Of a DNA stretch of 64,000 nt, positions 43,710 through 63,836 are shown in pieces; positions within the stretch are counted from its first letter, which is position 1; every line of letters starts with the position of its first letter. The DNA is from a virus (Duplodnaviria > Heunggongvirae > Uroviricota > Caudoviricetes), in IMG/VR virus record IMGVR_UViG_3300030616_000569; one strand, given 5' to 3'. The translations under genes were made by a program, and so were the position numbers. Under the pieces are notes generated by a model that saw nothing but the letters and a program-made list of their open reading frames with translations, ran no database searches and had not been told where the DNA came from.

Positions 43710-44477
43710 GTGAGACATGTAATAATTGGATCTGGGTCTACAGGCCAAGTCACTGGAGAATTTCTTGAGGCACATGGTGAAGATGTTATTTATCATGATA
43801 TAGATTATGATGTTGTTGATAGTCTAAAATCAGTCGGAAAGAAAGCGACTGAGGTACTGCCATCATCATGGGATATTGCATGGGTGTGTGTAAGTCAAGA
43901 TGATCTATCAAAAGCAATTCCTCCAAGACCATCAGATGATTCTACAATTGTAATAAGGAGTAATGTATCACCAGATGTATTCGAAAGACTTGATGTCGGT
44001 TATATACTTCACATGTGTATATATAATATTGAATTCAATATATTAGATAATGTGTTTTATCCACCGAGGATTGTTATAGGTGGTGTTCATGATAGTGTAC
44101 ACAGTGAAAGGTTATTATCATTCATGTCTGATATCATTCCGAATGTACCAATTTTTGTTGTGCCACAGAGGATATCATCTATGATATCAATAATATCTGA
44201 TGCTTGGTTTAGTACTCAAACATCTTTTTGGAATGAGGTTTATCTTATGTTATCATCAGACGAAAAGTACAGACAATGCGTTTCAAGTATTATTACAACT
44301 GATAAAAGAATATCTAAACATGGATCAACAATGATTGGAATGCCATATTTAAAGAAGACCCAATGTGATAATATAGATAGGATCATAGATCTTTGTGGGT
44401 CTCCCAATCTGTTTGAAAGCGTAAAAAATACGAATAACAAAATTATTAGTAAAAAAAGTAATATAAAACAAAAATAA
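43710..44477 (+). CDS. NAD(P)-binding Rossmann-fold protein
   Basis: N-term VIIGSGSTGQVTGEFL (GxGxxG), GTG start. Confidence 0.4.
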   Translation: MRHVIIGSGSTGQVTGEFLEAHGEDVIYHDIDYDVVDSLKSVGKKATEVLPSSWDIAWVCVSQDDLSKAIPPRPSDDSTIVIRSNVSPDVFERLDVGYILHMCIYNIEFNILDNVFYPPRIVIGGVHDSVHSERLLSFMSDIIPNVPIFVVPQRISSMISIISDAWFSTQTSFWNEVYLMLSSDEKYRQCVSSIITTDKRISKHGSTMIGMPYLKKTQCDNIDRIIDLCGSPNLFESVKNTNNKIISKKSNIKQK

Positions 44478-44506
44478 ACGATAAAATAGAAAATTAAAGG
44501 TGTAGT

Positions 44507-45847
44507 ATGAGTGATGTGTATATTGTTCATTGTATAGATACAGAGGGTCCACTTTATGAATCACTAGATGCAACATTTGAAAGGATCAAACATGTATATC
44601 ATTTGGATATTGAACCAAGTGCTGAAAATCTTAAAAAATTACAACTTGGTGAAATGGCTATTCCCGATGACTTGATTGAACCATTACGGATGATGTTGGA
44701 TCCAAATATATTGTCATACAATACAACATGGAAAGATATAGATTATATGCTTGATATTGTACATAATAATACTTTTAGGAATTCATTATTAGATTCAGAT
44801 AATAATGGTTGGAAATACAATTGGTTCTGTTGTGATTTTGTCGGTTATGATTACAACCCAAGAAGAAGAGATATGGGATATCATGCAATATTTGATCATT
44901 ACTCAAAATATATGAAAAATGATTTTATTGGATTCCATTATCATCCAAGACCGTTTAAATCAGAGGCACATATATGTGCTACAAATTGGCTTCACACGGA
45001 TTATCTATTTCAAATATTGTCTAGGCGCATTATAGACAGGAATTGGTTTCCTGCTGTGAATAGACCTGGATTCCAGGTGAATAGACCAGATTCAAATTGG
45101 TTTCTTGAACAGTATATTCCATTTGATTATTCTAACATGTCTTGCAAAATAACAGATCATGATAATAAACAATCTGATTTTTCACATGGGAGATCTGGTG
45201 ATTGGAGAAGGGCACCAATGAGTTGGGTTCCATATCATCCTTCACATGATGATTATCAAATCCCTGGTGATTGTAGACGTTGGATTGCACGTTGCCTTAA
45301 TATTGGTACAAGGTCTTATTTAATAGATCAAAATGAGGTCAATAAGTCATTTGAACTTTCAAGTGATCAACCACAGATATTATCATTCACTAATCATGAT
45401 TTTCGTGACATAAGTATTGATATTGATAATATGAGGAATATGTTATCAGTTGCAAAGGAGAAATATCCAGATGTTAAATTTCATTATTCAGATCCAATAT
45501 CTGCCATACGGAATGCAATGAACATCAAAAAAGAAAATAAATGTGAGTTTGAAACATCTATTGATGGTGATAATCTATATTCTAAATTATCTATAAGTAC
45601 AAAGAATCCAACATTTGGTCCTCAACCATATTTTTGTATAAAGACAAAGTCCAATCAATATTTCCATGATAATCTTGATTTTCAGGTTCCATTTCATGAT
45701 TGGACATATGTGTTTGATATGGAAACATTCAATATAGATTCAATAGATAAGATTGGGATAGCCTCGAATAATAGTTATGGTGTTACATCTGTATGTGTTA
45801 TTGACCCAAATGATGGTAATATAAATAAAACATATTATAATCTTTGA
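44507..45847 (+). CDS. hypothetical protein (446 aa)
   Basis: GGTG SD upstream; no motif recognised. Confidence 0.5.
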   Translation: MSDVYIVHCIDTEGPLYESLDATFERIKHVYHLDIEPSAENLKKLQLGEMAIPDDLIEPLRMMLDPNILSYNTTWKDIDYMLDIVHNNTFRNSLLDSDNNGWKYNWFCCDFVGYDYNPRRRDMGYHAIFDHYSKYMKNDFIGFHYHPRPFKSEAHICATNWLHTDYLFQILSRRIIDRNWFPAVNRPGFQVNRPDSNWFLEQYIPFDYSNMSCKITDHDNKQSDFSHGRSGDWRRAPMSWVPYHPSHDDYQIPGDCRRWIARCLNIGTRSYLIDQNEVNKSFELSSDQPQILSFTNHDFRDISIDIDNMRNMLSVAKEKYPDVKFHYSDPISAIRNAMNIKKENKCEFETSIDGDNLYSKLSISTKNPTFGPQPYFCIKTKSNQYFHDNLDFQVPFHDWTYVFDMETFNIDSIDKIGIASNNSYGVTSVCVIDPNDGNINKTYYNL

Positions 45848-45973
45848 TATTGAATAATTATTATATGGTGTTAATTTGAAAATATTTGTTAAAATCAAAA
45901 AATTTATACACGATCTTTTTACATTCAGTGAAGATGAAGATTATAGTGATGTTGATTTTCTTGAATTTAGTAG

Positions 45974-46267
45974 GTGGAAATAATGAAAAAATATGTTAGG
46001 TATTGTGACACATGTGGCGAAGAAGTTGATCCATATAAAAAAGGTTCGGTGACACTATTTCGTGATATTAGAATAGGTGTAGGAAAACGATATAAAGATG
46101 TACTTACTACTATGAAATATACAATTAGACCAGATGATTTTGATGGATTCAGAAAGGGATATAGTGACAATAATGATCAGGAATTCACCTTTTGTAGTGT
46201 TGAACATTGTATATCATTTCTTATAAATAAACAGATTGAAGTCTTTAAGGAGTTAGGAAAAAAGTGA
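45974..46267 (+). CDS. small Zn-binding protein
   Basis: CDTCGEE...CSVEHC; GGTGG SD. Confidence 0.45.
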   Translation: MEIMKKYVRYCDTCGEEVDPYKKGSVTLFRDIRIGVGKRYKDVLTTMKYTIRPDDFDGFRKGYSDNNDQEFTFCSVEHCISFLINKQIEVFKELGKK

Positions 46268-47208
46268 AGATCTTAATAACTGGTTGCTATAGATCAGGAA
46301 CTGAGTACGTAACACAATTACTGAATAATCATCCAAATCTTGCTGCAAAAATGTATACGACAAATTTTATGCGTTATTACTTTAAAAAATATGATCCGAT
46401 TGCTGAAAATTACTTGAAATTAATAAATAATGCGTATGATACGATAAAAAGTCGTCATAAAATAAAATTTAACTTAAAAAATGTTATAAATAACATTGAT
46501 AAACCATCATATGGTTCTATTTATGATGCAATAATGTCGGATTTGTACATAAATGATGAAGTCAAGCACTGGGGAGAGAAAACACAACTTGTTTGGAGAG
46601 AGATCCCACAATTTCTTAATATGTTCCCAGATGGTAAATGTATAAATATAATACGTGATCCAAGATCGGTTCTAGCATCCTTTAAAAAACACACTTATGC
46701 AAAAAAACCACTTTATCTTGGTGCAATCTTCAATTGTTTTGATTCTATGAAACATTCTGTAACTTATACAAATTATTATCCGAATAAATTTCTGAATGTG
46801 AAATATGAGGATGTCCTTATGAATGAAGAAGATGAACTTAAGAAAATTTTTGACTTTCTTGGTCTTTCTTCTGATCATGATCTAACATCTAGAGTTGGTT
46901 GGGTAGATACATCTGGAAATCCTTGGAAAGATAACACTGAATTTGGCAAGTTCTCGAAAACTAGCTCTGTTAATAGATGGAAAAAGAATCTTCTCACTTG
47001 GGAAGTAGACATGTGTGAGACTATAAATGACAAGTACATGAAGAAGTTCGGATATGAACGTGATATAAAACCAAATATAACCATAACATGGAAATATAAT
47101 AAACATCCAAAGGTAATTGAGTATCTAGATTTGTGGCGTATGAATAAAGGTATCCAGGAGTTTCCGACAGATCCAAATGATCCAAGCAATTGGAGTGAGA
47201 ATCAGTGA
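46264..47208 (+). CDS. sulfotransferase
   Basis: 5'-PSB motif ITGCYRSGTEY and 3'-PB motif IIRDPRSVLASF. Confidence 0.65.
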   Translation: MKILITGCYRSGTEYVTQLLNNHPNLAAKMYTTNFMRYYFKKYDPIAENYLKLINNAYDTIKSRHKIKFNLKNVINNIDKPSYGSIYDAIMSDLYINDEVKHWGEKTQLVWREIPQFLNMFPDGKCINIIRDPRSVLASFKKHTYAKKPLYLGAIFNCFDSMKHSVTYTNYYPNKFLNVKYEDVLMNEEDELKKIFDFLGLSSDHDLTSRVGWVDTSGNPWKDNTEFGKFSKTSSVNRWKKNLLTWEVDMCETINDKYMKKFGYERDIKPNITITWKYNKHPKVIEYLDLWRMNKGIQEFPTDPNDPSNWSENQ

Positions 47209-48128
47209 TACCAGATACTCTTCTTAAAAAATTACGTTGTGTAAATGTAGGAGGTGGACATCTCAAATATGGCCCATCTGTAAATTCACTTCAGTGCGAG
47301 CATTGTGAAACAATATATCCATCAATCAATGGAATACCAATGATTATGTGGAATGACCCTTCGAATGAAAATTGGAATACTTGGAATATTGACGAGACAA
47401 AGATGTCTGCTGATTCATATTACAAAAGATCAAATGGTGACCTTCCAGAAAAGGAGTCTTCAAAAAGTTTTGCTCATTTATTGCATGATTCAAATATATA
47501 CAAAAAGGGTGATTCTCTTCTAGACTATGGATGTGCATCTGGTCACTTTTATCGTAGCTTTCGTGATCATTTAGATAAAAATGTTGTATATACAGGAATT
47601 GACTCAAACATGGAATTTCTTCAATGGGGCAGAAATATATTTGGTATATCTGATAAATGTAATTTTGTTCAGTGTGACTGTAATCATCTTCCATTCCACA
47701 ACAATTCATACGATATCAGTGTTGTTAATTTATTTCATTTTTTCCCAATAATAGAAAGACCACTAAAAGAGGCAATACGTGTAACATCAAAATATCTTGT
47801 ATGGAGAACACCAATTTCTGATATAACAAACTATGTAGTACACCAATATCTAGATAAGTCATACGACAAACTCGGAAACCTTCATTTTGATCGCAAAGAT
47901 ATATCTTATGATATATGCAACATATTCACAAAGAAGTATATAACAGGATTAATCGAAGATTGTGGTGGCACTATTTTGTACACAAAAAGAGATACTGATT
48001 TTAAATCATTTGATAATACAAAAATAAAATCATTTAAGAACATACCTGCAACAAAAGTTGTTAATGGTTATCAAATAAATGATAGACTTGTGTTGGATTG
48101 GACATATTTTGTGATTGATTGTAGGTGA
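47205..48128 (+). CDS. class I SAM-dependent methyltransferase
   Basis: Motif I LLDYGCASGHF; motif post-I/II present. Confidence 0.55.
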   Translation: MIPDTLLKKLRCVNVGGGHLKYGPSVNSLQCEHCETIYPSINGIPMIMWNDPSNENWNTWNIDETKMSADSYYKRSNGDLPEKESSKSFAHLLHDSNIYKKGDSLLDYGCASGHFYRSFRDHLDKNVVYTGIDSNMEFLQWGRNIFGISDKCNFVQCDCNHLPFHNNSYDISVVNLFHFFPIIERPLKEAIRVTSKYLVWRTPISDITNYVVHQYLDKSYDKLGNLHFDRKDISYDICNIFTKKYITGLIEDCGGTILYTKRDTDFKSFDNTKIKSFKNIPATKVVNGYQINDRLVLDWTYFVIDCR

Positions 48129-49212
48129 TATTTTGGAAATAGATCAACAAGCTATTGATGAAGTTCGTGTTATTGGACGTGTTATTTCTGGAAAGACATT
48201 TTCTGGAAAGGAACAAAAACTTGATATTCCAGAGATTTATAGTGTGCAGAATCCATCGATCAAAAAAGCCAAAAAATGTTTGTTAGAATCGATGCAGGAT
48301 CTAGATGATATTGCATTATTATTAAGTGGTGGAAAAGACAGCAGAATGCTTGGTGTATTGCTGAAGGAACTTGGCAAAGATGTTACGTGTTATACATATA
48401 TTGGTAGACATAATAAATATGAAGAGAATGAGTTGAAAGTCTCTAAAATCGTTGCAAAGAAACTTGGATTTCGACATTCTGTGATTGATATTGATTGGGA
48501 ATCGAAAGAAGATAATGGTTTTTATGATCGTAAAATGATACCAGAGATTGTGAAAAAAACAGATGGTTCACCAATATTTCAGACAGTCTTGACAATGTCA
48601 TATGCTCGACCAAAGATACAGGAGAAAATCCTTATAACAGGTGATTTAGTTACTGAATTGTTAGACACAGGTGAATATAGACCTTGGTATCATGGAAAGG
48701 ATATTAAAAGATTTCTGTTCGACTGTGAAAAGTGTATTATTGATACTGTAGATGATCTTGAATCTTATAACAGATTATCTGACATGTATGAGTCGACAGA
48801 TGTTAATAATCTTCTTATTGTCAGAAAGAGTGATAGGATAAATAGAAAATCAGTGTATAAAGATCTCGGATGGAATGTATTTTTCCCTGCCTTGGATGTT
48901 GATGTTCTTAGTAATGTATTTTCACTTCCTTATAAATTTAGAACTGATGGTAATTTGCCAAGAATGATTGTTAAAATGACGAATAAAGAGTTATATAAGA
49001 CAAGGACTACAAGATCGCCATTCTCTCTTAAATATCCATTGTCATTTCATATTGCATATGGAAGAGTATTTAAGACTGGTGTAAATAATACACCAATAAT
49101 TGGATCATTCAATGATGATATTAGAATTATCGAAAACAAACACAAGAGAGAAAGATTGGATAATTTACAATGGTGGAAGTTCGCCAATGGTGTTAAAGAT
49201 GAAAAAAATTAA
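48115..49212 (+). CDS. PP-loop ATP pyrophosphatase (asparagine-synthetase-like synthetase domain, no glutaminase domain)
   Basis: IALLLSGGKDSRMLGVLL (SGGxDS). Confidence 0.55.
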   Translation: MIVGDILEIDQQAIDEVRVIGRVISGKTFSGKEQKLDIPEIYSVQNPSIKKAKKCLLESMQDLDDIALLLSGGKDSRMLGVLLKELGKDVTCYTYIGRHNKYEENELKVSKIVAKKLGFRHSVIDIDWESKEDNGFYDRKMIPEIVKKTDGSPIFQTVLTMSYARPKIQEKILITGDLVTELLDTGEYRPWYHGKDIKRFLFDCEKCIIDTVDDLESYNRLSDMYESTDVNNLLIVRKSDRINRKSVYKDLGWNVFFPALDVDVLSNVFSLPYKFRTDGNLPRMIVKMTNKELYKTRTTRSPFSLKYPLSFHIAYGRVFKTGVNNTPIIGSFNDDIRIIENKHKRERLDNLQWWKFANGVKDEKN

Positions 49213-50758: not shown

Positions 50759-51021
50759 TATTAAATAACACAACAAAGGTATTTTTAGTAATATGGTTGT
50801 TGATTGGAGTAGTTGTCTTTGCAAACATAGTTACATATGATAAACATAAAGTGATAACAAGTGATCTGACTGATGAAAGTCTAAGATATTGGGAATTTGA
50901 GTATGTCTCTGGAATAAAACATCCTGATTTTCCATTTTTGGTCCTGGTTTATTTTGTGTCGATGATAATGATATGTATATTACTACAAGGTGAACCAAAT
51001 GATAAAAGGAAGGAATCATGA
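50755..51021 (+). CDS. small membrane protein
   Basis: 88 aa, two TM; ATGA overlap. Confidence 0.35.
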   Translation: MILNNTTKVFLVIWLLIGVVVFANIVTYDKHKVITSDLTDESLRYWEFEYVSGIKHPDFPFLVLVYFVSMIMICILLQGEPNDKRKES

Positions 51022-58007: not shown

Positions 58008-59770
58008 AAATACTTGATTGTACTATACGAGATGGTGGGTATACAAACCATTGGGGTTTTACAGAAAAAGATGTCATCCGTGTATATGAGTCGATATCAT
58101 CTGCTGGAATTGAGTATTTTGAGGTTGGGTTCATTGGACCAAAGAAGGAAAAAGGAAAGTGGCAACATCTCTCGAAACATGAGATTATAAAGGTGTTCGG
58201 TGAAACATCTGGATCTGATATCGGTGTTATGATAAATTACAAAACAAAAACTACAGAGATACCAGACGGTGTTAAAATGGTTCGTGTTGCTACACATAAA
58301 GACACTGCCATTGATGCTATATTATTTTCAGAGGGTATAAAAGAATCTGGATATGTGACAAGTCTACAGTTAATGGGATATTCGACAATGTCTGATAAAG
58401 AAGTGAATTCTATTTGTAAGCAATTGAATAGAACTTCAATAGATTATGTATATGTTGCTGATAGCTATGGGTCAATATATCCACATGATATGAAAGATAT
58501 ATTGGATCCACTTCTATCTATAAAAAATATAAAGGTTGGATTTCATCCACACAATTCATTACAGCTTGCATTTGCCAACTCCCTAAAAGCAATAGAAATG
58601 GGTGTAGACATAATTGATGCTTCTTTAATGGGTATTGGTAGGGGTTCTGGTAATTTACCTCTAGAGCTTATTGCAGCTTACTTTAGAAGCAAATATAACG
58701 TAATACCGTTATTAAATTGTATAGATGATGTAATAGCGAAATATAGATACACGAATTATTGGGGATATGATCCTAGATATATGCTGTCTGGGGTGCTAAA
58801 TATTCACCCATATTATGCGAAACAAAATAGATCACTTGAAAGGGTTTGGAGATTAATAAATGAAAAAGATAGAAATTCTATTGGCTTTTCACAAGATGTA
58901 TTAGATGATTTATTGGACAAGGAATCAGATATGAGTAAAAACAAAATTGGTAAAGATGGTCTTCTTAAGACACCATTATCAAATGAATTTAGGAATGTAT
59001 TATCTAATAAATTCAACTATGGTCGTCACACAAAAAAGGCAATTAGAACACTTTCGAATATTGAGAGATTTAAAACATATTACAAGTATGACAAATACAC
59101 AGAAAAATTAGATGAGTTAGATAATAAACACAGTGGTGAAAGAGCATTTCTTATTGGAAATGGTCCATCATTGGTCGACACAAATCTAGGTCTATTGAAA
59201 AATGAGATTACATTTTGTGCAAATACGTTTTTCAACGCAATGAAAAATACTGTTATGAAACCAACATATTATGTTGTCAGTGATCCATGTGTTTTAGAAA
59301 GTTATCATAATGAAATATTAAGTTTGGATACCACAGTGATTCTAAACAATGGTGCTGCACACTTACAAATGAACAGATGTTATCCATCAAATGCAAAAGA
59401 TATTCATATGACAAAAAAACTTGGATTAAGTTATTTCAAGAATGATTTTTCCAAAGATGCTAGACATGGGATATACTCAACAAAGTCTGTTTTGTATGTG
59501 ATGTTACAATACGCATATTTTATGGGTTTTAAAGAGGTATATCTTGTTGGTTGTGATTTTTCATTTTCTGGTGAAAGATTTGATAAAAGTGAAACAACAA
59601 GAAAAGAAGGAGATGCTATGGCAAATCCTGATTTTTATAAGATTATTATGGAAGGACTTGAATTTGCAAAGTATAATTATGAATGTGATGGAAGGAAAAT
59701 AATAAATTCAACAATAGGTGGAAATTTGACTATGTTTGATCGAAAAGAACTTGAGGAAGTGATAAATTGA
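58004..59770 (+). CDS. fusion: DRE-TIM metallolyase (HMGL-like aldolase) domain + DUF115/Maf-like domain
   Basis: N-term MKILDCTIRDGGYTNHW (LRDG motif); C-terminal AFLIGNGPSLVDTNLGLL ... VYLVGCDFSF like second DUF115 gene at 49199. Confidence 0.55.
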   Translation: MKILDCTIRDGGYTNHWGFTEKDVIRVYESISSAGIEYFEVGFIGPKKEKGKWQHLSKHEIIKVFGETSGSDIGVMINYKTKTTEIPDGVKMVRVATHKDTAIDAILFSEGIKESGYVTSLQLMGYSTMSDKEVNSICKQLNRTSIDYVYVADSYGSIYPHDMKDILDPLLSIKNIKVGFHPHNSLQLAFANSLKAIEMGVDIIDASLMGIGRGSGNLPLELIAAYFRSKYNVIPLLNCIDDVIAKYRYTNYWGYDPRYMLSGVLNIHPYYAKQNRSLERVWRLINEKDRNSIGFSQDVLDDLLDKESDMSKNKIGKDGLLKTPLSNEFRNVLSNKFNYGRHTKKAIRTLSNIERFKTYYKYDKYTEKLDELDNKHSGERAFLIGNGPSLVDTNLGLLKNEITFCANTFFNAMKNTVMKPTYYVVSDPCVLESYHNEILSLDTTVILNNGAAHLQMNRCYPSNAKDIHMTKKLGLSYFKNDFSKDARHGIYSTKSVLYVMLQYAYFMGFKEVYLVGCDFSFSGERFDKSETTRKEGDAMANPDFYKIIMEGLEFAKYNYECDGRKIINSTIGGNLTMFDRKELEEVIN

Positions 59771-60510
59771 ATATAATTGGTGTTATTCCTTCAAGATATG
59801 ATTCCACAAGATTTCCTGGAAAACCACTCAAAAAGATAAATGGCAAAGAGATGATTGATATTGTTTATGAAAACTCTATGAGATCAAACAAATTAAACAA
59901 TGTCATTGTTGCAGCAAAAGACAAAGTGATATATGATCATTGCAAAAAGAGGGATATTAATGTTTTTTTGACTTCTGGAAAGGACAGATGTGGAACAGAT
60001 GCAGTATATGAAGTATCAAGAAAGCACGATGCAGATTTTTATGTAAATATACAAGGTGATGAGCCTATGTTAAAACCAAAGACTATTGGTGATTTTGTAA
60101 CTTCATTAGTATCTGAACACAAAATATATCATTTGATTGATACATTTAATTCTATGACAATATGTTCAAAGGATGATTTGAGTAATAAAAATGTTCCAAA
60201 GGTTGTAGTAAACAAACATAATTTTTGTATTTTCATGTCTAGGTTTGCAATACCATACAAAAAATCTTCATATTCTCCAATTCGGTATAAAGAGATTGGC
60301 TTGCATGCATATTCTGAATCATCACTTGAGAGATTTAAGAGACATGAAAAAAGATATATTGAAAAAGCAGAATCAATTGAATTTTTAAGGTATATTGAGT
60401 ATGATGAAATTGTTAAAATGATTTATCTTGATATAGATTATATAACACATGCTGTTGATGTACCAAGTGATATTGAATTAGTAGAGAAGTTGATTGGTAG
60501 CCAGGTGTAA
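59767..60510 (+). CDS. 3-deoxy-manno-octulosonate cytidylyltransferase-like (KdsB family)
   Basis: IIGVIPSRYDSTRFPGKPLKKINGKEMI and NIQGDEPML match KdsB. Confidence 0.65.
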   Translation: MNIIGVIPSRYDSTRFPGKPLKKINGKEMIDIVYENSMRSNKLNNVIVAAKDKVIYDHCKKRDINVFLTSGKDRCGTDAVYEVSRKHDADFYVNIQGDEPMLKPKTIGDFVTSLVSEHKIYHLIDTFNSMTICSKDDLSNKNVPKVVVNKHNFCIFMSRFAIPYKKSSYSPIRYKEIGLHAYSESSLERFKRHEKRYIEKAESIEFLRYIEYDEIVKMIYLDIDYITHAVDVPSDIELVEKLIGSQV

Positions 60511-60512
60511 TT

Positions 60513-61088
60513 ATGTCTTACGAAAGTAATATATATTCTGGTATCATATTTGATGTTGATGGTGTTATAATAGATTCTGTTAAAATAAAGACTGATGCAA
60601 TGAGACGTCTATTTCGTAATAATGAATCCAGTATTGATATGGATCTTGGTGGAAAATCAAGAAGTGAAAAAATATCCTATTTTTATAAGAAATTCAATAA
60701 TAAAGAAATATCTAAAGAGAAATTGGAGTGGATGGTAGGGAAATACTCTCTATATGTATATGATAAGATTATTAATGCAAATATATCACAGGATATTCTT
60801 TCTTTACTGGATAATGATAGTTATAATTTCTATGTAGTATCTGGAACACCTGATTCTGAATTAAAAACAATATTAAGTGATATTGGAATTATAGATAAAT
60901 TTAAGCATGTGTATGGATCAGATAATAAAGAGAAATACGAGATTTTATCTGATATTAAGGCACGTGAATCACGTGTGATATACATTGGTGATACAGAAAA
61001 GGATCGTTATGAGTCAAGAAAAGCAAATGTTGATTTTTTGAAATATAAATTTGGAGATGATGTGTTATGCAACATGTTTTGCCATTAG
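60513..61088 (+). CDS. HAD-superfamily hydrolase (KdsC-like sugar phosphatase candidate)
   Basis: Motif I IFDVDGVIIDS; motif III/IV region IYIGDTEKD. Confidence 0.55.
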   Translation: MSYESNIYSGIIFDVDGVIIDSVKIKTDAMRRLFRNNESSIDMDLGGKSRSEKISYFYKKFNNKEISKEKLEWMVGKYSLYVYDKIINANISQDILSLLDNDSYNFYVVSGTPDSELKTILSDIGIIDKFKHVYGSDNKEKYEILSDIKARESRVIYIGDTEKDRYESRKANVDFLKYKFGDDVLCNMFCH

Positions 61089-61849
61089 ATCGTGATTGGG
61101 AGATTTTGTTATTTATGGATGCTTGCCGTTATGATTATTTTGAGAAATGTAATACATTCGATGGGAATCTTGAACCATATGATATCGGGTGCAACGGAAC
61201 ACTAAAATATTTTGATTTTTTGTTCAGAGATCAAGATTGTAGTGATGTGATCTTCATAAACCATTTATTTTGGTTTCATAAATGGTATGACAAAAGTAAA
61301 TTCTTTAAGGTTCACGATGCTTGTAATACACATTGGAATCAGGATTTTGGCACTGTGTTACCAGAAGATATGTCAAAATTGGCACTTGAATATGCCTTGA
61401 AATACCCAAATAAAAGAGTTATTGCACATTATGCACAACCACATATCCCTTATCTTGATAGGCCAAAGAATCTTGTGAAGAAAAAGACTGAGCAACAATG
61501 TGTCTATTCTACACCAATGAAGGGATCTATTGCAAAACTCTTAAATAAGTGTAAGAACATATTCCCTGCTATGCCTTTTTGGATGATAGAGCGGATTTTC
61601 GGTGGAAATGCAGGTGTCGGTGAGATATATTTCAGTGAAGGGTTTGCAGGTTTAAAAAAATCATATGAGTATAACATAAGACGTGTTTTAAAAAGTATTG
61701 AGGAAATTATTGATAAAACGGATAGATTAACAGTTATTACATCAGATCATGGCAAACTGATCGGTGAGTATTTCATGTTTAGTCATGGATGGTGGAAACC
61801 AAAAGCTGTTACTACTGTTCCATGGTTTGAAGTTAAGAGAGGTGAATAA
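61067..61849 (+). CDS. alkaline-phosphatase-superfamily-like (metalloenzyme) protein, low confidence
   Basis: MDACRYDYF and ITSDHGKL motifs. Confidence 0.35.
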   Translation: MQHVLPLDRDWEILLFMDACRYDYFEKCNTFDGNLEPYDIGCNGTLKYFDFLFRDQDCSDVIFINHLFWFHKWYDKSKFFKVHDACNTHWNQDFGTVLPEDMSKLALEYALKYPNKRVIAHYAQPHIPYLDRPKNLVKKKTEQQCVYSTPMKGSIAKLLNKCKNIFPAMPFWMIERIFGGNAGVGEIYFSEGFAGLKKSYEYNIRRVLKSIEEIIDKTDRLTVITSDHGKLIGEYFMFSHGWWKPKAVTTVPWFEVKRGE

Positions 61850-62580
61850 TGAAAAGTAAAGAACATTTTGATAAAGTCGCAGATCAATGGAATAATAAAG
61901 TATGGGCAAAAGACAAGCAATTTGCATCAGACATCGTTCAATTTGCTGATCTTATGGGGTATGAATCTTCACTTTATGTTGGTATTGGTACAGGTGAAAT
62001 TGCAAAAAGATTTAATTGTGGAAGCATGATTGGGATTGACATATCACGCAAAATGTTAGAACAGAATAAAGTTATGAGTAAGGATAGACTTATTATTGGT
62101 AGTGCATTGGAAATTCCATTTTTAGATAATACATTTGATTTTGTTTTTGCACGTAATCTTCTGAAACATGTTGAAGATCCGAATGTAGTTCTTGGTGAAA
62201 TGAAAAGGGTTACAAATTCTGGTGGATATGTCATGACAGTTGAGTCTTGTGTATCAAAAATTTCTGATAAGAAATATCCTAATTTCTGTGTTAGGACGAT
62301 GGAACCAGATCACAATTCATTTAAAACACACTCTGAAATTATTAATATGTATGTTAACAACAATTTTTTTGCTATTGATGATTTATTATATACCCAAAAT
62401 GCAAAGTGGTTGAAGAAGTGGATTGAATCATCCAAAGCAACTAAATCAGTTTCTGATGACATACTAAATGTTTATAGAAATGCATCAAAATCATTTCTGA
62501 AGAGACAAAATGTAGTATTTACAGATGATGATGATATTAAAAGTGATATATTATGGTCTTTTATTAGGGCAAAAAAATGA
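61849..62580 (+). CDS. class I SAM-dependent methyltransferase
   Basis: VGIGTGEIAKRF motif I; DFVFARNLLKHV. Confidence 0.55.
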   Translation: MKSKEHFDKVADQWNNKVWAKDKQFASDIVQFADLMGYESSLYVGIGTGEIAKRFNCGSMIGIDISRKMLEQNKVMSKDRLIIGSALEIPFLDNTFDFVFARNLLKHVEDPNVVLGEMKRVTNSGGYVMTVESCVSKISDKKYPNFCVRTMEPDHNSFKTHSEIINMYVNNNFFAIDDLLYTQNAKWLKKWIESSKATKSVSDDILNVYRNASKSFLKRQNVVFTDDDDIKSDILWSFIRAKK

Positions 62581-62879
62581 TACAATGGTTAATAGAACAG
62601 ATAGAATATTTCGTAGACCAATTCTGGAGAGCACCAGGTCATGGAAGTGGCGATGGTGGAATACCTTTTACTTTGGAGTACATAATAAGGTGCGAATCAA
62701 CCCACTTCCTATTCTCTTTGTTTATGGGATGGCTGGTGTTCTCATTGATCTTGACCATCTTGTCATCCAACAGATTCAAAGGGTACGACCATTTCATGTT
62801 GAATATCTCATTGCTATGGGGATTATTTGCTTCTGTTACAACACATATGCTTATAGATGCGTACACAAGAATAGCTTAA
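62577..62879 (+). CDS. small membrane protein
   Basis: ATGA overlap; TM FLFSLFMGWLVFSLILTIL; alternative overlapping frame 62525..62905 not preferred. Confidence 0.3.
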   Translation: MIQWLIEQIEYFVDQFWRAPGHGSGDGGIPFTLEYIIRCESTHFLFSLFMGWLVFSLILTILSSNRFKGYDHFMLNISLLWGLFASVTTHMLIDAYTRIA

Positions 62880-62882
62880 ATA

Positions 62883-63086
62883 TTGGTGAACAAAATGAAA
62901 AGTAAAAATACATTAGGTGATAAACTTATCATGGGTGCGATATCACTATTAGTTTCTACAATTATTATTGCAGTCAATATACTATTTTTGATTTATATAT
63001 TGAAACCAGAAGATTTACTAATGTCATTTATGATGATGATGATACTAGCAATCTTTTTCCACTGTGTTTATAATACATTCAAATAG
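62883..63086 (+). CDS. small membrane protein
   Basis: 67 aa, 2 TM. Confidence 0.35.
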   Translation: MVNKMKSKNTLGDKLIMGAISLLVSTIIIAVNILFLIYILKPEDLLMSFMMMMILAIFFHCVYNTFK

Positions 63087-63095
63087 ATAAAAAAG

Positions 63096-63836
63096 GTGAA
63101 AAATATGAATATTGTTGTAATTGGAAACGGAATGATCGGATCAAATATTGCAAAACAAATGCGTGAAAGAAATATTGATGACATCTACACTGTTGATATA
63201 GATCCAAAAACAAAACCAGATTATACGAATATGTTGGATTTTTATAATGACAAAGGTGTCGCTGATGTTTACATTATTGCTGTATGGACACAGGATCAGG
63301 TCTTAAAGATTACTGGTTCGATTGTGTATAGAAATCATCCATTGATATCACTTGAGACGGCATGTGATATAGGTACATATCATGAAATGAAAAAGATTGT
63401 TAAGAATAATGCAGATCTTGTTGTTTTTCATGAGAGGTTTGTTGATCGTGATCCTAGTCATAATATCTTTAATCAACCACGTGTTATGGGTGGTGATTAT
63501 ATCTCTGGTCGTAGATTCTATTTGAGATATATGTTATGGGAAAATATAATTGTTACAAATGATCCTGAACTTGCTGAGATATGTAAAGTTGCTGAGAATG
63601 CATATAGATATGTTGAAATTGCTACTGCACAGGAGTTGAAGATGATGGTTGATGAAAGATTTGATGAGTTAAGACGTCTCATGAACACCAAATGGAATAT
63701 CAACATGCTTGAGGCACGTGATGGTATAGGTGGACATTGTTTAGGTAAAGATATTAATATTATAAATAAAAGGTGGAATAAGAATGACATATTCAAAGCA
63801 GCAGAAAAATCAAACAAAAAATATGTATCACATTAA
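63096..63836 (+). CDS. compact UDP-sugar 6-dehydrogenase-like protein
   Basis: N-term NIVVIGNGMIGSNIA Rossmann and catalytic-Cys motif GIGGHCLGKD (cf. GGSCFPKD); only 246 aa. Confidence 0.45.
   Translation: MKNMNIVVIGNGMIGSNIAKQMRERNIDDIYTVDIDPKTKPDYTNMLDFYNDKGVADVYIIAVWTQDQVLKITGSIVYRNHPLISLETACDIGTYHEMKKIVKNNADLVVFHERFVDRDPSHNIFNQPRVMGGDYISGRRFYLRYMLWENIIVTNDPELAEICKVAENAYRYVEIATAQELKMMVDERFDELRRLMNTKWNINMLEARDGIGGHCLGKDINIINKRWNKNDIFKAAEKSNKKYVSH

What the first reader, a model, noticed from the sequence alone, without database searches (positions are those of the whole stretch)
43710..63836. Large nonulosonic/ulosonic-acid glycan island with miniaturised enzymes, a DRE-TIM-Maf fusion, sulfotransferase and methyltransferases
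The island contains NeuC-like (261 aa), NeuB-like without SAF domain (230 aa), NeuA-like, KdsB-like and KdsC-like HAD genes. It also has two PP-loop amidotransferases (one WbuX/PseA-type with Zn-ribbon), an LbH acetyltransferase, a CBS-SDR dehydratase, a DegT-like protein missing its central part, a 246-aa UDP-sugar-dehydrogenase-like protein, two DUF115/Maf-like domains, a sulfotransferase and two SAM methyltransferases. This implies synthesis and transfer of an acetamidino/sulfated/methylated Pse/Leg-type sugar plus a Kdo-like sugar. The target is probably the sequon-rich giant surface proteins upstream. Systematic shortening of many enzymes is unusual and typical of viral or reduced genomes.
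Basis: partly seen in the sequence, partly recalled or inferred. Interest (0 to 1): 0.6.

Follow-up and report, generated by a model that had tools for sequence, protein, structure and literature searches.

The report
Virus-borne legionaminic-type sugar island, compact enzymes
A large virus-like element, probably of an archaeon, carries an intact 22-kb gene island for acidic nine-carbon "sialic-acid-like" sugars, built partly from conserved cut-down enzymes and including an uncharacterised aldolase-transferase fusion that may mark a new route to such sugars.

Summary
It continues 1.9 kb beyond the window with a C5-epimerase and a GT1.

The short enzymes are not pseudogenes. Each has same-length collinear orthologues at 38-75% identity in related 60-200 kb contigs. 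The 211-aa DegT belongs to a family of more than 3,300 proteins, found in at least 479 IMG/VR viral contigs. It folds confidently (pLDDT 94) as a minimal sugar aminotransferase with its Lys and Asp invariant.

The gene set fits a legionaminic-acid pathway rather than a pseudaminic one: SDR, DegT, LbH, NeuC/LegG-like, NeuB and a CMP-synthetase, plus a WbuX amidotransferase. No PseG or PseH is present.

The aldolase-DUF115 fusion is not unique; it has at least 470 homologues, none found characterised. Three different pairwise fusions link aldolase, cytidylyltransferase, HAD and transferase. This suggests a pyruvate-aldolase route to a second CMP-ulosonic acid, not canonical Kdo.

The context looks like an archaeal virus: intron-bearing tRNAs, sequon-rich secreted giant proteins, and a syntenic relative with DNA-hypermodification genes. 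No capsid or terminase gene was found. The glycosylation target is untested.

The parts
43100..43654 (+). Short tyrosine-recombinase/integrase-like gene (184 aa), immediately upstream of the island. It marks the boundary between the tRNA array and the island.
   Evidence: Pfam Phage_integrase E 5e-4; PHROG integrase phrog_1 E 5e-9.
43710..44477 (+). Very divergent UDP-sugar-dehydrogenase-like protein (255 aa): Rossmann N-terminus plus central helical domain, no C-terminal UDP-binding domain. The catalytic Cys is not alignable by eye.
   Evidence: UDPG_MGDP_dh_N E 9e-5; TIGR03026 42.6 bits, far below cut-off. PDB 3vtf E 0.003. No orthologue in the related loci.
44507..45847 (+). Conserved protein of unknown function (446 aa).
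   Evidence: No Pfam, NCBIfam or PDB match. 59% identical orthologue at the same position in L101.
45974..46267 (+). Small Cys-rich ORF (97 aa), function unknown.
   Evidence: No family match. Its end overlaps the next gene's start by 4 bases.
46264..47208 (+). Sulfotransferase (314 aa).
   Evidence: Sulfotransfer_3 79.7 bits (cut-off 27), Sulfotransfer_1 40.7 bits. 55% orthologue in L101.
47205..48128 (+). Class I SAM methyltransferase (307 aa) with an N-terminal Cys-rich extension.
   Evidence: Methyltransf_25/11/31 above cut-off. 46% orthologue in L101.
48115..49212 (+). PP-loop ATPase (365 aa) of the Asn-synthase/QueC type; candidate second amidotransferase or adenylating enzyme.
   Evidence: QueC 23.9 bits and Asn_synthase 22.9 bits, both just above cut-off. 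50% orthologue in L101.
49187..49918 (+). Stand-alone DUF115/MptE-like (Maf-type, sialyltransferase-like) domain protein (243 aa), directly upstream of the first CMP-synthetase gene.
   Evidence: MptE-like 43.1 bits (cut-off 34.6). 35-44% identical to the C-terminal halves of the fusions and to L101. phrog_4603 'alpha-2,3-sialyltransferase' E 4e-5.
49915..50571 (+). CMP-nonulosonate synthetase-like cytidylyltransferase (218 aa); LegF/PseF/NeuA role.
   Evidence: CTP_transf_3 79.6 bits. PseF model 111.6 bits, below cut-off 205.7. 50% orthologue in L002.
51018..51803 (+). Compact hydrolysing NDP-sugar 2-epimerase (NeuC/LegG-like, 261 aa). It lacks about 60 N-terminal-domain residues.
   Evidence: Epimerase_2 81.7 bits, matching profile positions 66-315 of 347. 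Best PDB match is LegG 5xvs, with the GDRxE, HLxxGE and RHAIT motifs kept. Orthologues of 259-269 aa at 47-59% in L002, L015, L019, L101 and L102.
51993..52439 (+). Left-handed beta-helix N-acetyltransferase (148 aa; PglD/LegH/NeuD-type C-terminal domain only).
   Evidence: Hexapep 42.8 bits; NeuD/PglB/VioB subfamily 47 bits. Fused to the NeuC-like protein in L002.
52670..53770 (+). N-acetyl-sugar amidotransferase of the WbuX family (366 aa); makes acetamidino groups.
   Evidence: TIGR03573 WbuX 333.3 bits (cut-off 203.2), full-length match. 47-61% orthologues in L002, L004, L019 and L101.
53951..54643 (+). Compact NeuB-type nonulosonate synthase (225-230 aa): TIM barrel only, no SAF/antifreeze-like domain.
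   Evidence: NeuB 132.4 bits. NeuB_NnaB 169.8 and PseI 139 bits, both below cut-off. The AEAGxNHxG, KFQ, KIAS, HCxSxYP, SDH and EKH motifs align to 1vli/6ncs. No SAF fragment elsewhere in the window. Orthologues of 220-246 aa. The nearest cluster representatives are 203-254 aa.
54631..55266 (+). Minimal DegT-type PLP sugar aminotransferase (211 aa; LegC role).
   Evidence: DegT_DnrJ_EryC1 56.4 bits. 3,343 homologues; the top 120 are 145-243 aa, nearly all 195-243. K123 and D99 are invariant in 33 sequences. AF2 pLDDT 93.8; Foldseek top hits are sugar aminotransferases, TM-score 0.62-0.72 normalised to the query.
55259..56581 (+). CBS-pair + extended SDR (440 aa); candidate NDP-GlcNAc 4,6-dehydratase (LegB/PglF role). 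It directly follows the mini-DegT, as in nearly all related loci.
   Evidence: Epimerase 142 bits, CBS 28.8 bits. LegB model 91.7, GalE 111.6, PseB 49.7 bits, all below cut-off. 53-57% orthologues.
56582..57538 (+). Conserved 318-aa protein with no sequence family; predicted GT-B-like fold; candidate third glycosyltransferase.
57528..58007 (+). Small membrane protein (159 aa), conserved partner of the module.
   Evidence: 39-45% orthologues in L002 and L101. No family match.
58004..59770 (+). Fusion of a DRE-TIM (HMGL-like) class II aldolase domain (residues 1-~270) to a DUF115/Cst-II-like transferase domain (residues ~360-588).
   Evidence: HMGL-like 88.9 bits, MptE-like 59.4 bits. Nearest named models are 4-hydroxy-2-oxovalerate aldolases. 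PDB 3dxi E 2e-38, and Cst-II E 1e-4 for residues 380-527. R9, D10, H181 and H183 invariant in 24 family members. At least 470 homologues.
59767..60510 (+). KdsB-like CMP-ulosonate synthetase (247 aa).
   Evidence: CTP_transf_3 123 bits. KdsB subfamily PRK05450.1-5 209.6 bits (cut-off 193). Equivalog TIGR00466 117.8 bits, below its cut-off of 155.2.
60513..61088 (+). HAD-IA phosphatase/mutase-like protein (191 aa).
   Evidence: HAD_2 58.9 bits. Best named models are beta-phosphoglucomutase-type, not KdsC. Fused to the KdsB-like protein in L004.
61067..61849 (+). Compact alkaline-phosphatase-superfamily protein (260 aa), the most conserved member of the second module.
   Evidence: Weak Sulfatase hit E 0.003. 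SDHG region aligns to sulfatases. 59% (L004) and 49% (L002) orthologues.
61849..62580 (+). Class I SAM methyltransferase (243 aa).
   Evidence: Methyltransf_11 69.9 bits.
62577..62879 (+). Small membrane protein (100 aa). It overlaps an alternative 126-aa ORF (62525-62905) in another frame.
   Evidence: 67% identical orthologue in L002, against 52% for the other frame.
63096..63836 (+). UDP-sugar(ManNAc-type)-dehydrogenase-like protein (243-246 aa) with NAD and central domains and the catalytic-Cys motif GGHCLGKD, but no C-terminal UDP-binding domain.
   Evidence: UDPG_MGDP_dh central domain 46.1 bits. TIGR03026 77 bits, below cut-off. Aligns to Cap5O 3ojl, including the Cys motif. A 290-aa N+central-only UGDH also occurs in L102.
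63784..64000 (+). Start of a glucuronyl C5-epimerase-like gene (298 aa; runs to 64680, beyond the window), followed by a GT1 glycosyltransferase (64662-65720). This is the true 3' end of the island.
   Evidence: Parent-contig gene calls with C5-epim_C and Glycos_transf_1. Orthologues in L002 and L101.

Best explanation
The region is an intact, operon-like glycan-biosynthesis island of about 22 kb. It sits on a large (at least 98 kb) virus-like mobile element whose host is most likely an archaeon.

**Module 1: a legionaminic-acid-type nonulosonic acid (inferred from gene content).**
1. The CBS-SDR removes water from NDP-GlcNAc at C4/C6 (LegB role).
2. The 211-aa mini-DegT aminates C4 (LegC role).
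3. The LbH protein N-acetylates the amine (LegH role).
4. The 261-aa NeuC-like enzyme removes the nucleotide and epimerises C2 (LegG role).
5. The SAF-less NeuB condenses the product with PEP (LegI role).
6. The 218-aa cytidylyltransferase makes the CMP-sugar (LegF role).
7. The WbuX amidotransferase, possibly with a methyltransferase, converts an N-acetyl group into an (N-methyl)acetamidino group.
8. The adjacent stand-alone DUF115 protein transfers the sugar.

**Module 2: a second CMP-activated 3-deoxy-2-ulosonic acid by a non-canonical route (inferred).**
1. The DRE-TIM aldolase domain joins pyruvate to an aldose, possibly phosphorylated.
2. The HAD and/or the alkaline-phosphatase-like protein removes or moves a phosphate.
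3. The KdsB-like enzyme makes the CMP-ulosonate.
4. The Cst-II/Maf-like domain fused to the aldolase, and possibly the GT-B-like 318-aa protein, transfers it.

**Tailoring and glycan context (inferred).** The sulfotransferase, methyltransferases, UGDH-like proteins, C5-epimerase and GT1 point to a sulfated, uronic-acid-containing glycan.

**Shown versus inferred.** Shown: domain identities, intactness and conservation of the compact enzymes, conservation of catalytic residues, gene order, and the gene fusions. Inferred: substrates, the order of steps, the identity of the sugars, and the acceptor. The acceptor could be the element's own sequon-rich secreted proteins and/or the host surface.
For: **Domain assignments:**

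**The compact enzymes are intact and conserved**
- Same-length collinear orthologues at 38-75% identity in L002, L015, L019/L020, L101 and L102.
- No stray fragments of the missing NeuB SAF domain or NeuC N-terminal region anywhere in the window.
- The mini-DegT family has 3,343 members with K123 and D99 invariant. AF2 gives pLDDT 93.8, and the Foldseek top hits are PseC, PglE, ArnB and perosamine synthase.
- NeuC-like and NeuB catalytic motifs are retained.

**Leg-type rather than Pse-type**
- The best PDB hit of the epimerase is LegG.
- The LegB and LegC models outscore PseB and PseC, and NeuB_NnaB outscores PseI.
- An LbH acetyltransferase is present instead of a GNAT, and there is no GT28-like PseG.
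- WbuX scores above its curated cut-off.

**Module 2**
- The aldolase domain is nearest to 4-hydroxy-2-oxovalerate aldolases and to 3dxi, and its R, D and HxH residues are invariant.
- The C-terminal domain hits the Cst-II sialyltransferase and phrog_4603.
- Three independent fusions link the parts: aldolase+DUF115 (here), aldolase+CTP_transf_3 (P0005/P0009) and CTP_transf_3+HAD (L004).
- In bacterial loci the fusion always sits next to a CTP_transf_3 gene.
- Maf enzymes can transfer Kdo and Neu5Ac (abstracts of bioRxiv 10.1101/2020.06.03.131540 and PMC11339370, as listed; papers not read).

**Context**
- About 24 tRNAs, two of them with 54-nt introns at position 37/38.
- All genes lie on one strand.
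- Sequon enrichment z 6.3 and 8.4 in secreted giant proteins.
- The syntenic relative L101 carries a 5-hmdU DNA kinase and a TET-associated glycosyltransferase.
- A known archaeal N-glycan combines sulfated GlcA with a terminal Leg derivative (PMC6137143).
Against: - Almost all pathway enzymes score far below NCBIfam equivalog cut-offs, so step assignments rest on superfamily membership plus gene content.
- The SAF domain of NeuB, the C-terminal domain of DegT and the UDP-binding domain of UGDH normally help bind substrate. Activity of the cut-down forms has not been demonstrated.
- In the syntenic relative L101 the mini-DegT is reduced to a 32-residue remnant, so the pathway is not always complete.
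- No capsid, portal or terminase gene was found in the roughly 76 kb of the contig that could be read. The relative L020 is not in IMG/VR.
- NCBIfam did not report a PGF-CTERM match.
- No aldose substrate for the aldolase can be named, and no characterised member of the fusion family was found in the literature.
- No oligosaccharyltransferase or flippase is present in the island.
Confidence: 0.6

Rival explanations
1. The short ORFs are remnants of frameshifted or truncated full-length genes: a decaying, non-functional cluster.
For: Several proteins are 30-45% shorter than family models. In the relative L101 the DegT gene really has decayed to a 32-residue remnant.
Against: - Same-length orthologues at 38-75% identity occur in at least five independent contigs.
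- The mini-DegT family has 3,343 members with an invariant catalytic Lys and Asp.
- The compact fold is predicted with high confidence.
- tblastn with full-length NeuB+SAF and Epimerase_2 queries matches only the annotated short genes, with no missing segments in other frames. The UGDH and full-length DegT queries gave no hit at all and are uninformative.
- Genes abut or overlap by a few bases, leaving no room for lost parts.
Confidence: 0.03
2. The contig is a piece of a cellular chromosome or plasmid of a small-genome archaeon (for example a DPANN lineage), and the island is an ordinary surface-glycan locus, not a viral one.
For: - No capsid, portal or terminase gene was found in the readable ~76 kb.
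- The element encodes secreted, membrane-anchored, sequon-rich proteins and a protein with a PGF-CTERM-like tail, which are typical cell-surface proteins.
- Fusion homologues occur in Pacearchaeota and Euryarchaeota MAGs.
- L002 lies in a binned MAG.
- L020 is not in IMG/VR.
Against: - No housekeeping genes appear in the ~76 kb read.
- Every gene is on one strand, and about 24 tRNAs sit in an 8-kb array.
- Most ORFs are orphans.
- There are tail-fibre-like PHROG and tblastn hits.
- The syntenic L101 carries a 5-hmdU DNA kinase, a TET-associated GT and a ThyA-like gene, which is a virus-type DNA hypermodification set.
- L015 has an intein-bearing RFC-like gene and a PDDEXK nuclease next to its island.
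Confidence: 0.2
3. There is no legionaminic acid. The SDR, DegT and LbH trio makes a free-standing diacetamido-trideoxyhexose (bacillosamine-type) sugar. NeuC, NeuB and the cytidylyltransferase separately make a sialic-acid/Neu5Ac-like sugar from UDP-GlcNAc.
For: - The mini-DegT + LbH + SDR trio occurs without any NeuB in Flavobacterium phage immuto.
- Most IMG/VR contigs with a mini-DegT have no NeuB nearby: 72 of 80.
- The NeuB_NnaB and NeuC_NnaA models are the top NCBIfam hits.
- L101 keeps NeuB, NeuC and the CMP-synthetase while having lost DegT.
Against: - The six genes are contiguous and co-conserved in five related contigs.
- The epimerase's best structural relative is LegG, which acts on diNAcBac.
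- WbuX-type amidotransferases act on N-acetyl groups of diamino sugars (plus family knowledge).
- The two schemes share every intermediate up to NDP-diNAcBac, so they do not exclude each other.
Confidence: 0.2
4. Module 2 simply activates host-made Kdo or another NulO, with the KdsB-like enzyme and the HAD acting as KdsB and KdsC. The DRE-TIM domain is a non-catalytic or unrelated (for example regulatory or lyase) appendage of the transferase.
For: - The KdsB-like protein passes a KdsB subfamily cut-off.
- Maf enzymes accept CMP-Kdo (abstract of bioRxiv 10.1101/2020.06.03.131540, listed).
- Synthase and transferase are non-consecutive steps, which makes their fusion odd.
Against: - DRE-TIM catalytic and metal residues are invariant across 24 diverse family members.
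- The aldolase domain is also found fused directly to a cytidylyltransferase.
- No KdsA or KdsD is present, and the HAD is not KdsC-type.
- Kdo is not a typical archaeal sugar (general knowledge).
- Pyruvate aldolases make exactly the 3-deoxy-2-ulosonic acids that CTP_transf_3 enzymes activate (family knowledge).
Confidence: 0.2
5. The island's product is aimed at the host cell surface (S-layer, pili, archaella) to block superinfection or mask receptors. This would resemble phage-encoded O-antigen conversion, rather than decoration of the element's own giant proteins.
For: - Phage-borne surface-glycan modification is well known (general knowledge).
- The island is separated from the giant-protein genes by about 17 kb and a tRNA array.
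- Related islands vary greatly in tailoring genes, as expected under arms-race selection.
Against: - The element's own secreted proteins are about twofold enriched in N-glycosylation sequons, whereas its cytoplasmic enzymes are not.
- In Halorubrum the same Leg-capped glycan decorates both the host S-layer and the viral spike (PMC6137143), so both targets may be used at once.
Confidence: 0.35

Closest known systems
Legionaminic acid pathway LegB/C/H/G/I/F (Campylobacter jejuni, Legionella, Acinetobacter; archaeal version in Halorubrum sp. PV6, PMC6137143)
   Same: The same six enzyme superfamilies are clustered: SDR dehydratase, DegT aminotransferase, LbH acetyltransferase, NeuC-type hydrolysing 2-epimerase, NeuB-type synthase and a CMP-synthetase. 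A WbuX-type amidotransferase and a methyltransferase accompany them, as in the C. jejuni ptmG/ptmH acetamidino branch (the latter from memory). The Halorubrum glycan also combines sulfated glucuronic acid with terminal Leg.
   Different: - The enzymes are highly divergent; all score below equivalog cut-offs.
- Four of the six are cut down: no SAF domain, no DegT small domain, a truncated NeuC N-domain, an LbH domain alone.
- The SDR carries a CBS pair.
- The cluster sits on a virus-like element, whereas HRPV-1 encodes none of these genes.
Maf (motility-associated factor, DUF115) flagellin nonulosonic-acid transferases and Cst-II (GT42) sialyltransferase
   Same: Both DUF115 domains pass the Pfam MptE-like threshold. 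The fused one hits Cst-II directly by sequence (E 1e-4). A GxGPSL-type motif is conserved. Each lies next to a CMP-synthetase gene.
   Different: - They are only about 230 residues (the catalytic core), against roughly 600 for Maf (from memory).
- No flagellin is present.
- One is fused to a DRE-TIM aldolase.
- The acceptor is unknown.
Kdo pathway KdsD/KdsA/KdsC/KdsB, including the virus-encoded versions predicted in CroV and Fadolivirus (PMC9614988)
   Same: A virus-borne glycan cluster with a KdsB-like cytidylyltransferase, a phosphatase, a UDP-sugar-dehydrogenase-like gene, GTs and sugar methyltransferases.
   Different: - There is no KdsA (DAHP-synthase-type) or KdsD gene.
- The HAD is not of the KdsC subfamily.
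- A DRE-TIM pyruvate aldolase occupies the synthase position.
- The host is prokaryotic (Shine-Dalgarno-like motifs and operon structure).
4-hydroxy-2-oxovalerate aldolases DmpG/BphI and the structural-genomics 'putative aldolase' 3DXI (DRE-TIM metallolyases)
   Same: These are the best sequence matches of the N-domain. The R-D-G and H-x-H metal/catalytic motifs are conserved.
   Different: - There is no partner acetaldehyde dehydrogenase.
- The setting is glycan clusters, not aromatic catabolism.
- It is fused to a glycosyltransferase-like domain.
- The His three residues after the metal-binding Asp of DmpG, as I recall that motif, is not conserved here (from memory, by eye).
Phage-encoded short DegT-like 'WecE' proteins (Flavobacterium phage immuto gp98, Synechococcus phage S-SCSM2R, huge phages LR756511/LR756502)
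   Same: The same roughly 205-215-aa mini aminotransferase family at 35-41% identity, next to an LbH acetyltransferase and an SDR.
   Different: Those phages lack the NeuC, NeuB and CMP-synthetase genes and the second module. Their annotations treat the protein as an ordinary WecE-type transaminase without noting the truncation.

Membership tests
Legionaminic acid biosynthesis cluster (LegB, C, H, G, I, F) | All six enzyme types are present and clustered. | tested here: met
   SDR 55259-56581, DegT 54631-55266, LbH 51993-52439, NeuC-like 51018-51803, NeuB 53951-54643 and CTP_transf_3 49915-50571. The same set is co-conserved in L002, L015, L019 and L102.
Legionaminic acid biosynthesis cluster (LegB, C, H, G, I, F) | Each protein reaches the curated equivalog score of its Leg/Neu model. 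| tested here: not met
   LegB 91.7 bits against 475. LegC family 35.2 against 420. NeuC_NnaA 106 against 236. NeuB_NnaB 170 against 400. PseF 112 against 206.
Legionaminic acid biosynthesis cluster (LegB, C, H, G, I, F) | The product is a 5,7-diamino-3,5,7,9-tetradeoxy-D-glycero-D-galacto-nonulosonate. | not testable with these tools
   Needs enzymology plus MS/NMR.
Pseudaminic acid pathway (PseB, C, H, G, I, F) | PseG (GT28-like UDP-sugar hydrolase) and PseH (GNAT acetyltransferase) are present. | tested here: not met
   No GNAT or Glyco_tran_28 domain appears in any island ORF of 85 aa or more. A NeuC-type epimerase and an LbH acetyltransferase are present instead.
NeuB-type nonulosonate synthases | A TIM-barrel domain carrying the conserved metal and PEP-binding motifs. 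| tested here: met
   Pfam NeuB 132 bits. The motifs align to 1vli, 6ncs and 1xuu.
NeuB-type nonulosonate synthases | A C-terminal SAF/antifreeze-like domain that completes the neighbouring subunit's active site. | tested here: not met
   The protein ends at profile position 229 of 241 of the barrel. There is no SAF hit, and no SAF fragment elsewhere in the window. The nearest relatives are also 203-254 aa.
DegT/DnrJ/EryC1 sugar aminotransferases | A PLP-binding Lys and the pyridine-N-binding Asp within the large-domain fold. | tested here: met
   K123 and D99 are invariant in 33 homologues. The AF2 model superposes on PseC, PglE, ArnB and perosamine synthase.
DegT/DnrJ/EryC1 sugar aminotransferases | The two-domain fold-type-I architecture of about 360-400 aa with a C-terminal small domain. 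| tested here: not met
   The protein is 211 aa. TM-score normalised to the target is only 0.36-0.42. The C-terminal domain and an internal ~45-residue segment are absent.
WbuX N-acetyl sugar amidotransferase (TIGR03573) | A full-length match above the curated cut-off. | tested here: met
   333.3 bits against 203.2; residues 1-343 match profile positions 1-343 of 344.
Kdo biosynthesis (KdsD, KdsA, KdsC, KdsB) | A KdsB cytidylyltransferase. | tested here: inconclusive
   It passes subfamily PRK05450.1-5 (209.6 against 193) but not equivalog TIGR00466 (117.8 against 155.2) or PRK13368 (216 against 255).
Kdo biosynthesis (KdsD, KdsA, KdsC, KdsB) | A KdsA (DAHP_synth_1) synthase, a KdsD isomerase and a KdsC-type HAD-IIIA phosphatase. 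| tested here: not met
   No such domains occur in the island. The HAD matches HAD-IA/beta-PGM models.
Maf / DUF115 (Pfam MptE-like) CMP-ulosonate transferases | A DUF115 domain above the Pfam gathering score. | tested here: met
   43.1 and 59.4 bits against 34.6. Cst-II hit E 1e-4. phrog_4603 sialyltransferase.
Maf / DUF115 (Pfam MptE-like) CMP-ulosonate transferases | Transfers a nonulosonic acid to Ser/Thr of flagellin. | not testable with these tools
   No flagellin or archaellin gene was seen in the window. The acceptor is unknown.
DRE-TIM metallolyases (HMGL-like) | A TIM barrel with the R-D-(G) motif in strand 1 and the H-x-H metal ligands. | tested here: met
   HMGL-like 88.9 bits against 29. 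R9, D10, H181 and H183 are invariant in 24 homologues.
UDP-glucose/GDP-mannose dehydrogenase family | Three domains (NAD-binding, central, UDP-binding) with a catalytic Cys. | tested here: not met
   The 63096-63836 product has the Cys motif GGHCLGKD but no C-terminal domain. The 43710-44477 product is still more divergent and has no alignable Cys.
Tailed viruses (Caudoviricetes) or any recognised virus group | Major capsid protein, portal and terminase genes. | tested here: inconclusive
   None was detected by Pfam, PHROG or tblastn in window 1-43 kb or in the 10 kb upstream. About 22 kb of the contig could not be read. There are only tail-fibre-like hits and the DNA-hypermodification genes in the relative L101.
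Archaeal PGF-CTERM / archaeosortase A substrates | A C-terminal PGF motif, a hydrophobic helix and a basic tail, recognised by the curated model. | tested here: inconclusive
   The 3009-4583 product ends ...PDTPGFTMIGLFVSIILIGILLRRRR. NCBIfam reported no PGF-CTERM match at E<=0.1.

The most novel reading that the evidence does not exclude
The aldolase-DUF115 fusion and its constant partners define an undescribed route to CMP-activated ulosonic acids. The partners are a KdsB-like cytidylyltransferase, a HAD and an alkaline-phosphatase-like protein. In this route a class II (DRE-TIM, pyruvate-dependent) aldolase replaces the PEP-dependent KdsA/NeuB-type synthases used in every known pathway, and it is physically fused to the transferase. 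The route would be widespread, with at least 470 homologues in bacterial and archaeal MAGs. Here it is carried, together with a complete minimal-enzyme legionaminic-acid pathway, by an archaeal virus that builds its own sialic-acid-like glycan. The 211-aa aminotransferase, 225-aa NeuB and 261-aa NeuC would then be close to the smallest functional versions of these folds.
Probability: 0.3. Interest if true: 0.8.

Novelty: new variant of a known kind. Interest (0 to 1): 0.6.

Why it matters
1. **Virus-encoded nonulosonic acid synthesis.** Such pathways are essentially undescribed. A comprehensive 2022 review of giant-virus glycans does not mention nonulosonic or sialic acids at all. The one archaeal virus known to carry legionaminic acid borrows it from its host. 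A virus that brings the whole pathway would show that viruses can control their own, or their host's, sialic-acid-like surface code.
2. **Minimal enzyme scaffolds.** The conserved cut-down enzymes are natural minimal versions of an aminotransferase, a NeuB-type synthase and a hydrolysing epimerase. That is useful for understanding which parts of these folds are dispensable, and for chemoenzymatic synthesis of legionaminic-acid derivatives.
3. **A large uncharacterised enzyme family.** The aldolase-transferase fusion family may represent a new way to make ulosonic acids. The three fusions found here give a directly testable pathway hypothesis.

Tried and rejected
- **Known phages.** Megablast of the island against INPHARED phages found no match.
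- **Relatives of the fusion.** None in IMG/VR. The genome-contig scan with P0004 found only distant bacterial aldolase domains and did not reveal which organism GCA_029935835.1 is.
- **Borg-like element.** Rejected: there are essentially no tandem repeats.
- **Frameshifted pseudogenes.** Rejected.
- **Virus hallmark genes.** Pfam, PHROG and tblastn on upstream ORFs found no capsid, portal or terminase.
- **PGF-CTERM.** Not detected by NCBIfam.
- **IMG/VR membership of relative L020.** No exact-match hit.
- **Proteins left unassigned.** PDB sequence searches for the 446-aa and 260-aa proteins, and for the stand-alone DUF115, gave nothing usable.
- **Literature.** Searches for a characterised aldolase-DUF115 protein, or for virus-encoded Leg/Pse pathways, found none.
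- **dN/dS.** Not attempted, because at 40-60% protein identity synonymous sites are saturated.
- **The two UGDH-like proteins.** They are not recognisable paralogues of each other.

Full report
**1. What is in the sequence**

Window 43710-63836 is a dense array of about 25 ORFs. All lie on the + strand, and most abut or overlap by a few bases. Many are preceded by GGAGG/GGTGA-like motifs. G+C is 30-34%, like the rest of the window.

The window is part of a 98,148-bp metagenome contig, ENA ERZ27252234 k141_2182633. There the array continues with a C5-epimerase-like gene (window 63784-64680) and a GT1 gene (64662-65720) before the contig ends.

Only two proteins pass curated family cut-offs: WbuX (333 bits against 203) and one KdsB subfamily model (209.6 against 193). 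The rest are clear superfamily members but far below equivalog scores, so this is a very divergent lineage.

**2. Are the short enzymes broken?** No.

- **Related contigs carry the same small versions.**

| Locus | Source | Contig size |
|---|---|---|
| L002 | NCBI GCA_029935835.1 | 45.6 kb |
| L015 | ENA | 200 kb |
| L019/L020 | ENA / JGI | 59 / 82 kb |
| L101 | ENA | 80.6 kb |
| L102 | JGI | 104.8 kb |

  In these loci NeuB is 220-246 aa, the NeuC-like protein 259-269 aa, DegT 206-211 aa and LbH 121-133 aa. Identity to the window proteins is 37-75%.
- **No lost pieces elsewhere.** tblastn with full-length NeuB+SAF and Epimerase_2 queries matches only the annotated short genes. The UGDH and full-length DegT queries gave no match at all and are uninformative.
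- **The 211-aa DegT-like protein belongs to a very large family.**
  - It has 3,343 homologues; almost all of the best 120 are 195-243 aa.
  - At least 479 IMG/VR viral contigs encode a relative.
  - Cultured phages carry it too: Flavobacterium phage immuto, Synechococcus phage S-SCSM2R and two huge phages.
  - It also occurs on a bacterial chromosome.
  - In a 33-sequence alignment the Schiff-base Lys (K123) and the PLP-binding Asp (D99) are invariant.
  - AlphaFold2 gives pLDDT 93.8 and pTM 0.91. Foldseek places the model on the large domain of PseC, PglE, ArnB and perosamine synthase.
  - It lacks the C-terminal small domain, about 45 internal residues and the N-terminal ~25 residues.
- **NeuB.** It keeps all barrel motifs and lacks only the SAF domain. 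Its closest cluster representatives are also 203-254 aa.
- **NeuC-like protein.** It keeps the GDRxE, HLxxGE and RHAIT motifs and has lost about 60 residues of the N-domain.
- **UGDH-like protein at 63096-63836.** It keeps the GGHCLGKD Cys motif and lacks the UDP-binding domain. L102 has a similar 290-aa form.
- **Normal-sized proteins.** WbuX, KdsB-like, SDR, HAD and the sulfotransferase have normal lengths, so the shortening affects five or six enzymes, not all.

**3. Which sugars?**

*Module 1.* This is the gene set of a legionaminic-acid pathway:
- an SDR dehydratase candidate;
- a DegT;
- an LbH N-acetyltransferase;
- a NeuC-type hydrolysing epimerase, whose best solved relative is LegG;
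- a NeuB;
- a CMP-synthetase.

The Pse-specific PseG and PseH types are absent. The LegB and LegC models outscore PseB and PseC. The WbuX amidotransferase and a methyltransferase suggest an acetamidino, possibly N-methylated, derivative. This parallels the C. jejuni ptmG/ptmH branch, which I cite from memory. The stand-alone DUF115 gene sits directly upstream of this module's cytidylyltransferase.

*Module 2.* The order is: a 318-aa protein, a small membrane protein, the aldolase-DUF115 fusion, the KdsB-like gene, the HAD, a 260-aa alkaline-phosphatase-like gene and a methyltransferase. The same cassette is conserved in L002 and L004.

- The fusion is not unique. At least 470 proteins of about 560-590 aa share its aldolase domain, and those checked carry a C-terminal DUF115 domain or, in some, a cytidylyltransferase domain. 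They occur in MAGs of many bacterial and archaeal phyla and are named only 'aldolase catalytic domain-containing protein'.
- In two bacterial contexts examined, the fusion lies next to a CTP_transf_3 gene within NulO/polysaccharide clusters.
- The N-domain is closest to 4-hydroxy-2-oxovalerate aldolases and to the structural-genomics aldolase 3DXI. R9, D10, H181 and H183 are invariant in 24 members.
- The C-domain hits the Cst-II sialyltransferase by sequence and a PHROG sialyltransferase family.
- Three different fusions tie the components together: aldolase+DUF115 (here), aldolase+cytidylyltransferase (P0005/P0009) and cytidylyltransferase+HAD (L004).
- CTP_transf_3 enzymes activate 3-deoxy-2-ulosonic acids, and pyruvate aldolases make exactly that class of compound.

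The most economical reading is therefore a pyruvate-aldolase route to a second CMP-ulosonic acid. It is not a Kdo pathway in the known sense: KdsA, KdsD and a KdsC-type HAD are all absent.

*Tailoring.* The sulfotransferase, the UGDH-like proteins, the C5-epimerase and the GT1 recall the sulfated-uronic-acid, Leg-capped N-glycan of Halorubrum sp. PV6 and its virus HRPV-1.

**4. What carries the island?**

- All ORFs in the 64 kb are on one strand.
- An 8-kb array holds about 24 tRNAs. Two have 54-nt introns at the canonical 37/38 position, which is an archaeal or eukaryal trait.
- The giant upstream proteins are about twofold enriched in N-X-S/T sequons (z 6.3 and 8.4), whereas the island enzymes are not. 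Hydrophobic N- and C-termini read by eye suggest that the 1348-aa protein is secreted and membrane-anchored.
- One secreted protein ends in a PGF-CTERM-like tail, but NCBIfam did not report a match.
- Most other ORFs are orphans.
- No capsid, portal or terminase gene was found in the roughly 76 kb that could be read. Only tail-fibre-like similarities turned up.
- The syntenic relative L101 carries three relevant genes just downstream of its island: a 5-hmdU DNA kinase (E 2.5e-48), a TET-associated glycosyltransferase and a ThyA-like gene. This is a virus-type DNA hypermodification set.
- L015 has an intein-containing RFC-like gene, a PDDEXK nuclease and the same ARPP-1 gene as the window.

I therefore regard an archaeal virus as the most likely carrier (about 0.65). 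A plasmid-like element or a small-genome archaeal chromosome is the main alternative.

**5. Comparison with what is known, and novelty**

- NulO clusters, Maf/DUF115 transferases and WbuX are well known in cells.
- Virus-borne Kdo genes have been predicted in CroV and Fadolivirus, but the 2022 giant-virus glycan review contains no mention of nonulosonic or sialic acids.
- HRPV-1 carries Leg made by its host.
- My literature searches found no described virus-encoded Leg pathway and no characterised aldolase-DUF115 protein.
- Among 80 IMG/VR contigs with a mini-DegT, only 8 have a NeuB nearby and none has the fusion. Islands like this one appear confined to a small clade of related large contigs.

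I rate it a new variant of a known kind. The part that could be categorically new is module 2.

**6. Caveats**

- All functional steps are inferred.
- The cut-down enzymes lack substrate-binding parts of their canonical relatives.
- L101 has lost the mini-DegT; only a 32-residue remnant remains.
- The acceptor and the linkage type (N- or O-linked) are unknown.
- The viral nature is not proven.

Noticed in passing
window 33003-41207: An array of about 24 tRNA genes, all on the + strand. Rfam finds three that ARAGORN missed (34645-34779, 37765-37890, 39434-39520). Two of these carry 54-nt introns at the canonical 37/38 position, which is an archaeal/eukaryal trait.
   Followed up: partly
window 1738-7172 (and 10 kb upstream in L009): At least eight paralogous small proteins share an N-terminal motif GW(Y/H)xExKRHSLAxRGI(K/Q)T followed by unrelated C-terminal parts. 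Ten copies occur in L009, and none in the other loci fetched by then (L001-L020). No family match was found.
   Followed up: partly
window 3009-4583: A secreted 524-aa protein with a peptidase C10/C39-like domain and thrombospondin-type-3/MopE repeats. Its C-terminus (...PDTPGFTMIGLFVSIILIGILLRRRR) looks like an archaeal PGF-CTERM sorting signal, but NCBIfam gave no PGF-CTERM hit.
   Followed up: partly
window 7471-11517 and 12136-18501: Giant proteins of 1348 and 2121 aa. The larger one has five Laminin_G_3 repeats. N-X-S/T sequons are about twofold enriched: 42 against 17.8 expected, and 76 against 33.1. The 1348-aa protein has hydrophobic N- and C-termini by eye.
   Followed up: yes
window 43100-43654: A short (184 aa) tyrosine-recombinase-like ORF lies exactly between the tRNA array and the glycan island. 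It may be a relic of cassette acquisition.
   Followed up: no
window 62525-62905 / 62577-62879: Two overlapping ORFs in different frames both have 'orthologues' in L002 (52% and 67% identity). The 100-aa frame is probably the real gene.
   Followed up: partly
L101 8524-8676 and 14895-20951: In this syntenic relative the mini-DegT gene is reduced to a 32-residue remnant. The island is followed by a PDDEXK nuclease, a TET-associated glycosyltransferase, a 5-hmdU DNA kinase and a ThyA-like gene (thymidine hypermodification).
   Followed up: partly
L002 2366-3682; L004 8941-10200; proteins P0005/P0009: Alternative gene fusions occur within the same pathway set: NeuC-like+LbH (438 aa), KdsB-like+HAD (419 aa), and DRE-TIM aldolase+cytidylyltransferase (567-568 aa).
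   Followed up: yes
window 33291-34475 and L015 18609-19504: An ARPP-1 domain protein fused to an archaeal-type winged-helix domain (weak Lrs14/MsvR/TrmB hits). An ARPP-1 gene also lies near the island in the 200-kb relative, which in addition has an RFC-like ATPase interrupted by an intein.
   Followed up: no
L015 7822-8265; L004 2127-2876: Formyltransferase genes (a 147-aa mini version in L015) sit inside the related Leg-type clusters. [quoted passage not shown] The window itself has no formyltransferase.
   Followed up: no
whole window: GC skew is positive in every 2-kb bin and cumulative skew rises monotonically, in step with the single coding strand. No replication origin or terminus signal lies within the 64 kb.
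   Followed up: no
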